Shown here: positions 54,587 through 61,388 of the stretch, in pieces | Position numbering within the stretch: position 1 is the stretch's first letter | Layout: each line of letters opens with the position of its first letter | Assembly: GCA_051362555.1 (NCBI GenBank) | Contig: CM120649.1 | Location: forward strand, 1,426,001 to 1,490,000 | Source of the DNA: Lingula anatina | Taxonomy: Eukaryota > Animalia > Brachiopoda | Reading direction: 5' to 3' | DNA: 64,000 nt | The notes under the pieces: model-generated | The model's database searches: none | What the model was told of the DNA's origin: nothing | What the model saw: only the letters and a program-made list of their open reading frames with translations | Position numbers and translations under genes: made by a program

Positions 54587-56796
54587 GTGTTTTGAACCTC
54601 GTCGTTGCAGCATTTACTGGTTTTGAGACCAACAACAAGTACGAGATCAAGAACAGCATGGGACAGAGGGTCTACTTCGCCGCAGAAGGTGAGATAGTCA
54701 CTAGTACTTGTCAGGGTGTGATTGGAAGTTGAATCTAATTTGAGAGAGAGAGAGAGAGAGAGGCAAACAGCATGGGACAGAGGGTCTACTTTGCCGCAGA
54801 AGGTGAGATAATCACTAGTACTTGCGAGGGTGTGATTGGAAGTTGAATTCAATTTGAGAGAGAGAGAGAGAGAGACGAAAAGCATGGGACAGAGGGTCTA
54901 TTTTGCTGCGGAAGGTGAGATGTGTGGGTGAGATGATCACTAGTAGGTGTGACTGGAAGTTAAATTTAGAATTTGGATTACAAGAGTTAGAGAGAATATG
55001 GAGGAGCTCTAGTTCTGTGTTGTAGAATTAAAAGGAATAAGGGAGTGTAAAGTGTATGCTTTGCGAAGAGAAAGTTTTGGGATATTTCAAGCCGAAATCA
55101 AAGAATAGTAGTTTGAATATTCTCTCCCATTAGTCTAGAGAAAGTTCATGTTGAGTGAATGTATTCTTTGTTAATGTAGTTAAAAACAAAAGATTTATTA
55201 CTTTGTTTTCTTAACAGAAAAGGACTTGGGGATGTCATTTTGCCAGATACAATCATTTGCGTTGATCAATGCAAACCCCTTTGATTTTTCATATTGATTG
55301 ATTCATATTTTTCATGTTGCTTGTGATGTCCTGAAAATTGTCAAGTATTATTTGTGCTTTGTAACAAACTAACCTCTGTAATGGCTTGTTTTCCGTCTGC
55401 ACCTGAAAGCTGGTGGATGTTGTTCGTGTTGTAATCGTAGCTGCTGTGGCTCAGCACGCGGGTTTGACATCCGTATCGTGGACACCAGCGGGCGTGAGGT
55501 CATCCATCTAAGACGCCCCTTACGCTGCAGCACGTGTTGGTGTCCATGTTGCTTACAGGTAGTGGTTGCTTTTCGTTGAGTGCTTTGTTGATGTTGCAAG
55601 GTGTTGTCTTGATGTTGAAGAGTGTTGCTTTGATGTTGGAAAGCACTGTGGTAATGTTGCATATTATGTTGTGTTGATGTTGTGGAGTATTTTGTTTGGT
55701 TTGGTCTTATGTTGTGTTGGTTTTGAACTTATTTAATTGCATTGTCTTAATTTCAGAAGAGAGTTATTTATTTGCTAGATGTTATTTGCCTCCCCGCAGT
55801 CTCCACTCTTCAGATGTCACTTGTATCAAGACAAGCCGCATCCCGATTTATTTATTTATTTATTTATATAATTGATGTTTTGTATACATTTTTTAGACAC
55901 TGATTGCTGCACGCGGAACATTTGTGGAAACGGTCGACCATTTGACATGAAAATCATGGACAATGTCGGTAAAGAGGTCATCCATTTATCCCGTCCCTTG
56001 AGATGCAGCACTTGCTGGTTTCCATGTTGTTTACAGGTACAAATGAACAAAAATGCTATTTGACTGCATATTTCAGAACCTTTTTGCAGTAAGGCTAGGC
56101 CCTTGTAAGTAAGTTAAACATTTTTGTATTACTTAAGAGGACTTAACCTAGTGTTTAAATACAATAAGCGTGTATTGGTTTCTTTTTTGTTTACAGGTAA
56201 GAAAAGCTAACAAACAAACAAACAAATCATAATACTTATAGTTTGTTCTTAGAAAATTCAACTTTCCCTTAAAAAAGTTGAACATATTTGATTTGAAGAT
56301 TGCTGTTTTATTTTTTCTGTGTTATTTTGCCTAATTTTTTAATTTGTATTTGTCTATTGGGGTGTATTGATGCAGTGGATACTTCTTATTGAAATGTAGA
56401 TTTGTATCAAATTCATGAGAATGCCTTTTTCTTTTATTGCAAAATTCTATCAAAAATAATGTAAGTAATATTAATGATTCAGGACCTACTGAATGGAGAG
56501 AGATAACTGAAAAAGTATAACCATAAAATCTTATGTTTAAAATATGCTTGAATTTTTATGACTGATCAGTCATTATATTATAAAAGAGAATTGCATCTGC
56601 TAGCTATGCACTGTAGAATTGCAAATTAAATCTACACGAAGCTCTACTAATTGATTATCAGTTTTTAAGATAATTGGAATAATTTTTATAGCTTTTATAG
56701 AGAGGAACAACAAAGGGAAACGAAAGCCCAATTTGATATCTCATTCTAACTGAATTGTTTGCTTTTCGTGTAATGATCTCTTCCTAGTATTGCTAT

Positions 56797-56827
<31 letters not shown>

Positions 56828-59800: not shown

Positions 59801-61388
59801 GGGACATTTGTAGAAAGTTAAATGCAAAAGAGGCCAGTTATAATTTTGCTCATTTGTCATTTTTTTAAACAAAGAACAGAATCACATAAGAAATGATGAA
59901 ACTTGCATATTTGGCCAAAAACAGGATTATTAAAAATGATGAATAATTTTATATTGCCTTTTATGTCTATAATGGTTTACTACTGTTACTACTTAGTTTG
60001 TATACTTTTATAACTTCAAAGTTTCTGAAAATGGGCAGGGTTCAACATGCTTGAAATGTTTTAAATATTTAAAATTGAAATAAATAGATAATAACACCAC
60101 ATAGGATTAGTGCAGTGTCTGTTGCTTTGGTCAAGATGTTGATATTACATTGTATGAATGTAAGCCTACAAATCGCAAAATTAAGTTATTTTTCAAAAAA
60201 TAGAAATATTGTTATTAGGTCAATTTAAATAAAACAACTTTTGAACCACCATACACAAGTTATAATTGGAATATATCTGAAAGTATTAAAGTTATTCATT
60301 TGACAATCTTAAGATACAAAGAATGCTTTTGTATTTAAAGAGATTTGTAAACAACTAAGAAAAATATGTTTGAAATTAAAAGAAAATCGAGCCTTGCTAA
60401 AAATGAGGTTAGTATAAAGTGTGCCTTTATTATTAGAGTGAAGCTATTTGAATGTTCTTCACATTCAAATCTCTTGTGTGATCATAAAATGCAGTGTGAG
60501 CTTGTACTAGAGTCTAATTTAGTCAGTCTACCCTTTTCTCTGTTTATTTGATACATTTTAAGCTTCTTATTTCCACTTAACTTCAAAATAACCTCTCACT
60601 GTTTCATTATCATCTTTTCCTTTTTTGTGGTCAAAACACATTTTTGTGTATAATGAAATAAGTCATTTTTGGAATATTTTAAGTTTGTTCCAGTGTTGCA
60701 TTGTGGGTGGGACGGGTTGGTCAAAATGTTCCCATTATAGCCCTCATAAGTTCTGTTCCTACTAACAGTTTTACTTCAGGTTCTTGAATTTTCTCTCTCG
60801 TCTTCTTAAGTTTCACTATTCCAGTTTTGACTTCAGTGTTGGCTTCAGTTTGGCTTCAGTTTTGCACTGAGTAAATCTGAACACTTTTGCAGTTGCCTTT
60901 TATTCAGGGTGTAATTCAGTTTCTTAATGTCTTCTCACTTTTTCAGAATATTAATCAACTGTAGACATAAAATTGTCTGGATATCATTTTGAAAGTTGAT
61001 GTACTTTTATCTCACGTGTAGTAATTCAGATCCAACTTAACTTAATGCCACCTAACAATTTCAGATTCATTAACACTTATTTCAGATTTAACAATATTGA
61101 TACTTTGTGATTTTACAGCTCATTTGATTAAAACTTTTCAGGTGTCATAATTTTATTAAATTTTCTTTAAGTGTACATATAACTTTATTCCTGAAACTGT
61201 TATAAAATTTTTTCAACAATCAGTGTACAGTGATGTTGATTTTGTGCTTTGCATTCATAATATTTTTCATATGATTTTGTTGGAAAAAATGGGCTGATAT
61301 GTTGACATTTTCTGTTTTCTGTTTCTAGGATTACATGTTCTTTGAGAAGTCACAGAATAAAGAAGAGGCTAAAGTTGGAATGGCATAA
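51671..61388 (+). CDS. PLSCR: Phospholipid scramblase (PLSCR family), about 250 aa, with alternative internal and terminal exons
   Basis: Coding exons C1 51671-51701, C2 53894-54007, C3 54611-54688, C4a 55410-55558 or C4b 55897-56036, C5 56839-57003, C6 57289-57450, then one of several last exons. Motifs [35 protein letters not shown]..CWx[12 protein letters not shown] and [34 protein letters not shown] match the PLSCR family. Confidence 0.96.
52630..52789. mobile_element. MITE family C copy, opposite orientation
   Basis: Reverse complement aligns with 17088-17256. Confidence 0.7.
53894..54007 (+). CDS. PLSCR coding exon C2
   Basis: gccag| [38 protein letters not shown] |gtaaga. Confidence 0.95.
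54536..54580. repeat. (TA)n microsatellite just upstream of the PLSCR C3 acceptor
   Basis: Direct reading. Confidence 0.9.
54611..54688 (+). CDS. PLSCR coding exon C3
   Basis: ttgcag| [26 protein letters not shown] |gtgaga. Confidence 0.95.
54652..54960 (+). repeat. Triplicated 112-114-bp unit: 3' half of PLSCR exon C3, its donor and (GA)n
   Basis: agcatgggacagagggtcta.tt.gc.gc.gaag|gtgagat ends at 54688, 54802 and 54914. Confidence 0.92.
55410..55558 (+). CDS. PLSCR alternative exon C4a (duplicate of C4b)
   Basis: tgaaag| [50 protein letters not shown] |gtagtg; open frame with the same phases (1 in, 0 out) as C4b; the AAG acceptor is weak. Confidence 0.8.
55897..56036 (+). CDS. PLSCR alternative exon C4b
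   Basis: ttttag| [47 protein letters not shown] |gtacaa. Confidence 0.95.
56839..57003 (+). CDS. PLSCR coding exon C5
   Basis: ccatag| [19 protein letters not shown]...[15 protein letters not shown] |gtaata. Confidence 0.95.
57289..57450 (+). CDS. PLSCR coding exon C6
   Basis: ttctag| VLSKDG...[44 protein letters not shown] |gtgagt. Confidence 0.96.
57934..57996 (+). CDS. PLSCR alternative last exon C7a
   Basis: gtttag| [26 protein letters not shown] at 58327. Confidence 0.88.
   Translation, partial: DFMFFEQSGGDKEQQTVGML
58669..58782 (+). pseudogene. Frameshifted duplicate of PLSCR last exon C7b (possible fifth terminal exon)
   Basis: atccag|gatatga...gctaaaagagttggacaccat aligns to C7b (gacatga...gccaaaagagggggacaccat) with 22 nt missing; reads [37 protein letters not shown]. 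Confidence 0.5.
58825..58887 (+). CDS. PLSCR alternative last exon C7b
   Basis: Pyrimidine tract plus gtatag| [26 protein letters not shown] at 59091. Confidence 0.75.
   Translation, partial: DMMYFEQNTDKAKRGGHHHH
59490..59552 (+). CDS. PLSCR alternative last exon C7c
   Basis: ctttcag| [26 protein letters not shown] at 59650. Confidence 0.88.
   Translation, partial: DYMFFEQAGDKKQDSVGNVI
61329..61388 (+). CDS. PLSCR alternative last exon C7d
   Basis: tttctag| [25 protein letters not shown] at 61518 and 61563. Confidence 0.88.
   Translation, partial: DYMFFEKSQNKEEAKVGMA

What the first reader, a model, noticed from the sequence alone, without database searches (positions are those of the whole stretch)
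55410..61388. Scramblase gene diversified by exon duplication: 2 mutually exclusive Cys-rich exons x 4-5 alternative C-terminal exons
Seen: one PLSCR gene carries two homologous copies of the Cys-rich internal exon and four intact homologous last exons, each with its own acceptor, stop codon and downstream AATAAA/ATTAAA, plus a fifth broken copy. This gives 8-10 possible isoforms from one locus, and the ORF track shows almost none of it. Known: vertebrates diversify PLSCRs as separate paralogous genes. Inference: this lineage reaches comparable diversity within one gene by swapping the palmitoylation region and the tail after the C-terminal helix. I do not know of this architecture being described for a scramblase, but I cannot search to confirm that.
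Basis: partly seen in the sequence, partly recalled or inferred. Interest (0 to 1): 0.9.

Follow-up and report, generated by a model that had tools for sequence, protein, structure and literature searches.

The report
Scramblase gene with swappable tail exons
In the lamp shell Lingula one scramblase gene splices on any of four related tail exons, in proportions that differ between RNA samples, and database gene models of a ribbon worm and of echinoderms show the same swap, which likely tunes where the protein sits or what it binds; a second, cysteine-richer copy of its likely membrane-anchor exon is intact but was not seen spliced into any transcript.

Summary
The duplicated exons are real. 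The gene is the Lingula anatina PLSCR gene (219/219 aa identical to RefSeq isoforms X1-X3). RNA reads from 8 runs join exon e to all four intact tail copies: L1 228 reads, L5 105, L4 6, L3 5. The L1:L5 ratio differs strongly between runs. It has a donor 8 nt after its stop and is spliced onto L5 (205 reads), which then serves as shared 3' UTR. The extra Cys-rich exon c1 is intact and constrained (dN/dS 0.11 against c2), but no b-to-c1 junction was listed, against 170 reads for c2 in the four fully listed runs. So 4 isoforms are shown, not 8-10. The layout is not unique to this lineage: RefSeq models show alternative tails at the same border in Lineus and six echinoderms, and alternative c exons in Lineus and a bryozoan. 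Lingula also has a separate paralogue. Seven literature searches found no description for scramblases. Verdict: a new, recurrent member of a known class (tandem exon duplication-derived substitution); function untested.

The parts
51639..51701 (+). Upstream exon n (5' border uncertain, 51635 or 51639); probable start codon at 51671
   Evidence: Junction 51701 to 53894 in 4 of 4 runs; translation from 51671 resembles the N-termini of Tubulanus and Lineus proteins
53894..54007 (+). Constitutive coding exon a
   Evidence: Junction reads; part of the 219/219 match to RefSeq
54611..54688 (+). Constitutive coding exon b; phase-1 donor for c1 or c2
   Evidence: Junction reads
55410..55558 (+). Exon c1: intact Cys-rich duplicate (11 Cys, in-frame 9-nt insertion adding two Cys), AAG acceptor; not seen spliced
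   Evidence: Open frame; dN/dS 0.11 against c2; keeps 24 of 26 conserved columns; no junction listed
55897..56036 (+). Exon c2: the used Cys-rich exon (7 Cys), holds the region matching the human palmitoylation motif
   Evidence: b-to-c2 junction 335 reads over 8 runs; in all three RefSeq isoforms
56050..56199 (+). Probable decayed third copy of exon c (3' end and donor recognisable, stops in frame)
   Evidence: 25 of 33 nt match to the c2 end, best in the window after c1; whole-exon score 82 against background best 78, so weak
56839..57003 (+). Constitutive coding exon d
   Evidence: d-to-e junction reads; c2-to-d seen only as loose ends because a repeat was skipped
57289..57450 (+). Constitutive coding exon e; its donor is spliced to any tail exon
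   Evidence: Junction reads
57934..58004 (+). Tail L1: stop ends at 57996, donor at 58004; stop-bearing cassette spliced onto L5 (rarely L4); RefSeq X1 tail
   Evidence: e-to-L1 228 reads and L1-to-L5 205 reads in 8 of 8 runs; L1-to-L4 3 reads in X8
58669..58730 (+). L2x: broken duplicate of L3 (about 20 nt missing, frame shifted)
   Evidence: Alignment and background test; no junction listed
58825..58906 (+). Tail L3: ends in four His, stop ends at 58887, candidate donor at 58906; not among the three RefSeq isoforms
   Evidence: e-to-L3 5 reads from 5 starts in run X5 only; donor from sequence, its use not seen
59490..60500 (+). Tail L4: stop ends at 59552, probably a true alternative last exon with its own 3' UTR (end approximate); RefSeq X2 tail
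   Evidence: e-to-L4 6 reads in X6; depth 1.9-6.1 over 59588-60539, then 0; no GT[AG] donor with an exonic AG within 200 nt of the stop
61329..63050 (+). Tail L5: stop ends at 61388; common last exon with long 3' UTR (to about 63050 or further); RefSeq X3 tail
   Evidence: e-to-L5 105 reads in 7 of 8 runs; depth through 63042

Best explanation
This Lingula scramblase (PLSCR) gene splices its constant body onto one of four homologous tail exons, in proportions that differ between RNA samples, and the swap likely changes the protein's partners or location rather than its fold. Steps: (1, shown) each tail copy carries its own stop, so the first copy joined to exon e sets the C-terminus. (2, shown) L1 is a cassette whose stop lies 8 nt before a donor; it is spliced onto L5, which becomes 3' UTR, and skipping L1 gives the L5 tail on the same UTR. 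(3, partly shown) L4 is probably a true alternative last exon; L3 probably works like L1. (4, inferred) no strict exclusion machinery is needed for tails, and the L1 stop is close enough to the last junction to escape decay (the 50-55 nt rule is recalled). (5, predicted) the exon supplies the last ~8 residues of the C-terminal helix, which are conserved, and 11-12 mostly disordered residues, which differ; three end in Gly plus hydrophobic residues, one in four His. (6, inferred) c1 is a long-constrained alternative to c2 that would add palmitoylation sites and would be kept exclusive by frameshift and decay, but it is rare, confined to unsampled tissues, or recently silenced.
For: Junction counts in 8 runs: e-L1 228, e-L5 105, L1-L5 205 (summed in 52); e-L4 6 (X6), e-L3 5 (X5), L1-L4 3 (X8). 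L5 share of L1+L5 is 0.67-0.69 in X4 and X5 and 0.00-0.17 in the other six runs; X5 and X6 come from one study and differ (45 of 72 against 0 of 11, Fisher p 7e-5). RefSeq X1-X3 carry L1, L4 and L5. Of 26 read variants I took from the listed coding positions, 24 are silent, including the single ones in L1 and L4 and a stop-to-stop change in L5. AlphaFold2 model (mean pLDDT 80.7): helix 228-249, tail exon starts at 242, residues 253-260 under pLDDT 50. Same-border alternative tails in isoform sets of Lineus (4), Amphiura (4), Strongylocentrotus (3), Lytechinus, two Diadema species and Apostichopus (2 each). c1: dN/dS 0.11, p 5.6e-6; neutral drift beyond about 0.1 changes per site is unlikely (p 0.05). 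Lineus and Watersipora models swap exon c.
Against: L3 and L4 each rest on 5-6 junction reads in one run. Tissue, stage and genotype of the runs are unknown, so 'regulated' is not separated from differences between individuals. No b-c1 junction against 170 b-c2 reads; c1 depth there (0-0.92) is no higher than the next intron bin (0-2.89); RefSeq has no c1 isoform in the 3-member cluster; c1 has the only non-YAG acceptor of 11 exons. No close relative of c1 with its extra Cys was found. No functional test of any tail exists; the isoforms of other species are database models whose genomic exons I could not see.
Confidence: 0.72

Rival explanations
1. c1 is a recently silenced pseudo-exon: the gene has one working Cys-rich exon and only the tails alternate (compatible with the tail part of the best explanation).
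For: No c1 junction in 4 fully listed runs; upper bound about 2% if truly zero, 4.5% if up to 2 reads per run were under the listing threshold. AAG acceptor. The locus holds other dead duplicates: L2x, a third c remnant, two partial copies of exon b.
Against: c1 is open, its one indel is in frame, it keeps 24 of 26 conserved columns (c2 keeps 25) and is as close to the Tubulanus exon as c2 is (34 of 44 each). Only a short neutral period fits. Other lophotrochozoan models use two c exons. Only 6-26% of each of 8 runs of unknown tissue was read.
Confidence: 0.4
2. The differences between runs reflect genotype or population, and the minor tails L3 and L4 are tolerated splicing leak; only L1 and L5 matter and they are functionally equivalent.
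For: Runs differ in alleles (variant tables); L3 and L4 each seen in one run; L1, L4 and L5 are of one sequence type (mutual scores 49-61).
Against: In X6, L4 has 6 of 11 listed exon-e junction reads, not a leak level. All four frames are intact. L3 scores 50-61 with His-ending tails of bivalves and Lineus but 22-32 with its own siblings, and the same swap recurs in other phyla.
Confidence: 0.22
3. One reading: four or five true last exons chosen by alternative polyadenylation, combined freely with two mutually exclusive c exons to give 8-10 proteins.
For: All four tails are spliced to exon e; L4 and L5 behave as last exons; Lineus models combine 2 c exons with several tails.
Against: L1-L5 junction reads (205) nearly equal e-L1 reads (228), and depth after L1 is 0 in 4 of 4 runs, so L1 is internal. 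No c1 or L2x junction was listed.
Confidence: 0.06

Closest known systems
Tandem exon duplication-derived substitutions (Martinez-Gomez et al. 2021, PMC8373072; seen: passages and a search of its one supplementary table)
   Same: Homologous exons swap one protein segment; C-terminal swaps and genes with three or more C-termini are described there.
   Different: The passages attribute homologous C-terminal swaps to alternative poly(A) use, whereas the main tail here is a stop-bearing cassette on a shared UTR. PLSCR has 0 hits in that text and its table.
KRAS exons 4A/4B (PMC9882654, passages; listed as a C-terminal event in the PMC8373072 table)
   Same: Two homologous 3' exons give alternative C-termini of a membrane-associated protein. 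That 4A carries a stop and is spliced onto 4B is recalled, not read in these passages.
   Different: KRAS tails hold CaaX and palmitoylation signals with known targeting roles; these tails have no Cys and no tested role. There are four copies here, and that paper derives 4A from NRAS exon 4, not from a local duplication.
RefSeq models XP_013418544/547/548 (Lingula) and XP_064639677-685 (Lineus longissimus X1-X8)
   Same: The Lingula models are this gene with tails L1, L4 and L5. The Lineus set has 2 c exons, 4 tails and also 2 versions of exon e.
   Different: They are automatic models without interpretation; c1 and L3 are not in the Lingula set.
Human PLSCR1 and Drosophila Scramb1 (PMC10371867, PMC12003403, PMC11335299: passages; PMC2639001: first third of the text)
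   Same: Same Pfam family. The Cys motif at the end of exon c matches the palmitoylation site needed for membrane location; the C-terminal helix is modelled as buried in the barrel.
   Different: Scramb1 isoforms are described as coming from two promoters; no tail or Cys-exon swap appears in the passages seen.

Membership tests
Phospholipid scramblase (PLSCR, Pfam PF03803) | Scramblase domain above the curated cut-off | tested here: met
   312 bits against cut-off 25.4 for P0009; c1 42.5 and c2 52.8 bits alone
Phospholipid scramblase (PLSCR, Pfam PF03803) | Tubby-like barrel with a long C-terminal helix | tested here: inconclusive
   Model has 12 strands and helix 228-249; best Foldseek hits are Tub and TULP1 but only E 0.011-0.025, TM 0.38-0.43, none at E<=0.001
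Phospholipid scramblase (PLSCR, Pfam PF03803) | Cys cluster matching human C184-C189 | tested here: met
   c1 keeps 4 of 5 and c2 3 of 5 Cys of the motif, read against primate PLSCR1 P0083; palmitoylation itself not testable
Phospholipid scramblase (PLSCR, Pfam PF03803) | Lipid scrambling or membrane-fusion activity | not testable with these tools
   No assay
Tandem exon duplication-derived substitution, C-terminal | Homologous exons in tandem, same phase | tested here: met
   Four phase-0 exons with a shared start motif
Tandem exon duplication-derived substitution, C-terminal | Transcripts use the copies as alternatives | tested here: met
   Exon e joined to L1, L3, L4 and L5
Alternative last exons by alternative polyadenylation | Each copy ends the mRNA at its own poly(A) site | tested here: not met
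   Not met for L1 (spliced to L5, 205 reads); probably met for L4 and L5; unknown for L3
Mutually exclusive internal exons (c1/c2) | Homologous, same phases, double inclusion breaks the frame | tested here: met
Mutually exclusive internal exons (c1/c2) | Both copies found in transcripts | tested here: not met
   No c1 junction listed against 170 c2 reads; one search hid 42 junction rows but c1-bin depth was 0-0.11
Mutually exclusive internal exons (c1/c2) | Purifying selection on both copies | tested here: met
   dN 0.28, dS 2.48, p 5.6e-6; this averages over the whole history of both copies
Mutually exclusive internal exons (c1/c2) | Docking-site/selector RNA pairing (Dscam-like; concept recalled) | tested here: inconclusive
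   Only short AT-rich inverted repeats of chance quality; no related genomes for covariation

The most novel reading that the evidence does not exclude
Invertebrate PLSCR genes carry an old, unrecognised tail switch. One class of tail ends in Gly plus hydrophobic residues and another in His and charged residues. The choice between them was present in the lophotrochozoan ancestor (Lingula L3, Lineus and bivalve His tails), or re-evolved repeatedly there and in echinoderms, because the tail is a partner- or pH/metal-sensing module. Together with a switchable palmitoylation exon this would define the control points of a protein family whose real function is still disputed.
Probability: 0.25. Interest if true: 0.68.

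Novelty: new member of a known kind. Interest (0 to 1): 0.42.

Why it matters
What PLSCR proteins do is unsettled: the passages read treat scrambling as weak or dispensable and stress the barrel and palmitoylation. If several phyla keep duplicating the same two exons, the Cys exon and the last 20 codons, evolution is pointing at the tunable parts, and the short tail has had little study as far as my searches reach. Natural tail variants on an identical body are a ready test set. The splicing layout, a stop-bearing cassette on a shared UTR, also shows how tail copies can pile up without exclusion machinery. [quoted passage not shown]

Tried and rejected
No whole genome is held for this window, so paralogue count and exons upstream of 49500 were not examined. 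No indexed RNA holder was listed; the nine raw-read runs came by species label, and 8 of 9 were laid (X9 was not). A tree of 47 exon-c segments (46 columns) could not place c1 or c2: 27 of 44 forks were open, and AU tests rejected none of the 7 groupings tested (p 0.09-0.40); only the bryozoan-type copies grouped with support (98/98 and 98/90). So one ancient duplication against repeated ones is undecided. An early idea that c1 is orthologous to the Anopheles exon (similar start) found no support in that tree, and all 14 proteins of the two mosquito clusters carry that same exon type. Searches for a c1 orthologue: 2 hits, both ordinary PLSCRs at 73-78%; 1 fragment; 379 hits among 1.84 billion representatives, best 150 listed, none above 79%, and 0 of 93 parsable ones had the longer Cys spacer. 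These are weak negatives because isoforms collapse in clusters. No RNA pairing of note. Poly(A) hexamers rejected as evidence. Assembly artefact rejected: c1 and c2 are synonymously saturated and their flanking introns show only background similarity, and the tails have junction reads. The wide structural search was not run. Four look-ups of earlier scan findings returned nothing on this gene or layout in a scramblase. Literature searches without a relevant hit in the listings; subscription journals are mostly not covered, and supplements other than that of PMC8373072 (for example insect or genome-wide lists of mutually exclusive exons) were not seen and could list a scramblase.
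Full report
Identity. The + strand of 51.6-63.1 kb holds one phospholipid scramblase (PLSCR) gene. Exons a, b, c2, d and e translate to 219 residues that are 100% identical to Lingula anatina RefSeq PLSCR1 isoforms X1-X3, so the window is from this brachiopod or a very close relative. The protein scores 312 bits on Pfam Scramblase. Lingula has a separate paralogue at 77-78% identity, and loose read ends at 57422 in two runs look like such a paralogue.

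Observation. c1 (55410-55558) and c2 (55897-56036) are homologous and have the same phases. Either alone keeps the frame; both or neither give an early stop. Four intact tail exons begin at 57934 (L1), 58825 (L3), 59490 (L4) and 61329 (L5), and a scan of both strands finds no others. The fifth copy at 58669 is an L3 duplicate lacking about 20 nt.

RNA evidence, tails. Nine raw-read RNA runs were offered by species label. I laid eight, 6-26% of each; tissues are unknown. Exon e joins L1 in 8 of 8 runs (228 reads) and L5 in 7 of 8 (105 reads). In the four runs whose junction table was complete but for one row dropped at a repeat, e joins L4 in one (6 reads, X6) and L3 in one (5 reads, X5). One search hid 42 junction rows, so L3 and L4 could not be counted there. 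The L5 share of L1+L5 is 0.67-0.69 in two runs and 0.00-0.17 in six; two runs of one study differ (p 7e-5, reads treated as independent). The unexpected result is a junction from 58004, 8 nt after the L1 stop, to the L5 acceptor: 205 reads in 8 of 8 runs, plus 3 reads to L4 in X8. Depth behind L1 is zero in the four runs. L1 is therefore an internal cassette with a stop, and L5 is the shared last exon, with a UTR to about 63050. L3 has a similar candidate donor 19 nt after its stop, not seen used. L4 has no such donor, and depth in X6 runs on to about 60500 and then stops, as for a true last exon.

RNA evidence, c1. b joins c2 in 335 reads over 8 runs. No b-c1 junction is listed; that is against 170 c2 reads, an upper bound of about 2-4.5%. 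c1 depth is at intron level. RefSeq has no c1 form in the cluster. Yet c1 is not a long-dead exon: dN 0.28, dS 2.48, dN/dS 0.11, p 5.6e-6 against c2; it keeps 24 of 26 conserved columns; and simulation leaves room for only about 0.1 neutral changes per site. It has 11 Cys against 7 and the only non-YAG acceptor among 11 exons. I put its use in some unsampled tissue at a little over even odds.

Other species. I listed the members of 30 clusters (the three clusters with over 15 members were listed only in part) and compared isoforms. Alternative tails that start at the same border occur in named isoform sets of Lineus longissimus (4), Amphiura (4), Strongylocentrotus (3), Lytechinus variegatus, Diadema setosum, D. 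antillarum and Apostichopus (2 each). Oyster sets vary only the last 5-9 residues. Alternative c exons occur in Lineus and Watersipora, and in two pairs with an unnamed member (one with Bugula); Lineus also swaps exon e. Against generality: the named isoform sets of the ten arthropod clusters, the crinoid and sea-star clusters and the two cnidarian clusters showed no such swap, apart from one odd Penaeus tail; clustering at 90% can split isoforms. These are database models; I could not see their genomic exons. L3 scores 50-61 with His-ending tails of bivalves and Lineus and 22-32 with its siblings, but His content alone drives part of that. The exon-c tree cannot tell one old duplication from several.

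Structure. An AlphaFold2 model of the L5 form (91 sequences, pLDDT 80.7) has a C-terminal helix at 228-249. The tail exon starts at residue 242, so it gives about 8 conserved helix residues and then a variable end, of which 253-260 are of low confidence. Best fold matches are Tub and TULP1, weakly, in line with Bateman et al. (PMC2639001, first third read). The end of exon c matches human C184-C189, whose loss removes membrane location (PMC10371867 and PMC12003403, passages); the fly Cys cluster is needed for Scramb1 function (PMC11335299, passages).

Mechanism. Shown: one of four tails is joined to exon e; the first joined sets the C-terminus; L1 uses L5 as UTR. Inferred: such transcripts escape decay because the stop is near the last junction (rule recalled); tails change partners or location; c1, if used, would raise palmitoylation and be kept exclusive by frameshift. 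No RNA pairing of note was found.

Comparison and novelty. The class is known: tandem exon duplication-derived substitution (PMC8373072, passages and table search), with KRAS 4A/4B as the nearest layout (PMC9882654, passages). PLSCR is absent from that human catalogue, and seven searches (listings only) showed no paper on duplicated scramblase exons. Three of four tails are already RefSeq isoforms. New here are read support for L3, the cassette layout of L1, the silent but constrained c1, and the recurrence across phyla. Verdict: real, partly as described; new member of a known kind; interest 0.42.

Noticed in passing
window 54766-54809 and 54879-54921: Two young partial copies of the 3' end and donor of exon b (97% and 87% identical), separated by GA repeats; no junction from them was listed, but reads were cut at this repeat.
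   Followed up: partly
window 56050-56199: Probable decayed third copy of exon c with an intact-looking donor.
   Followed up: partly
window 51635-51670: The RefSeq N-terminus starts with Met-Thr-Asn, but the window has no ATG at that codon; an ATG at 51671 matches the starts of relatives. Allele difference or an upstream exon is unresolved.
   Followed up: partly
window 48124-49372: Tandem array of about eight 160-bp units, mostly 91-96% alike, with more divergent end units.
   Followed up: no
window 57040-57165 and 54043-54089: Short intronic repeat element; reads from other copies give opposite-strand joints here, as for a small hairpin-type element.
   Followed up: no
window 39606-41674 (minus strand): Two-exon cytochrome P450 gene, head to head with the scramblase.
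   Followed up: partly
window about 28400-37000 (plus strand): Exons of a sodium/calcium exchanger-type gene; one ORF hits Na_Ca_ex, and a 313-aa low-complexity ORF lies at 32237-33178.
   Followed up: partly
proteins P0122 and P0127 (Lineus X3, X4): These models differ in a block matching exon e, a third duplicated exon not duplicated in Lingula.
   Followed up: partly
protein P0284 (unnamed, 474 aa): Two scramblase domains in tandem in one predicted protein; may be a fused gene model.
   Followed up: no
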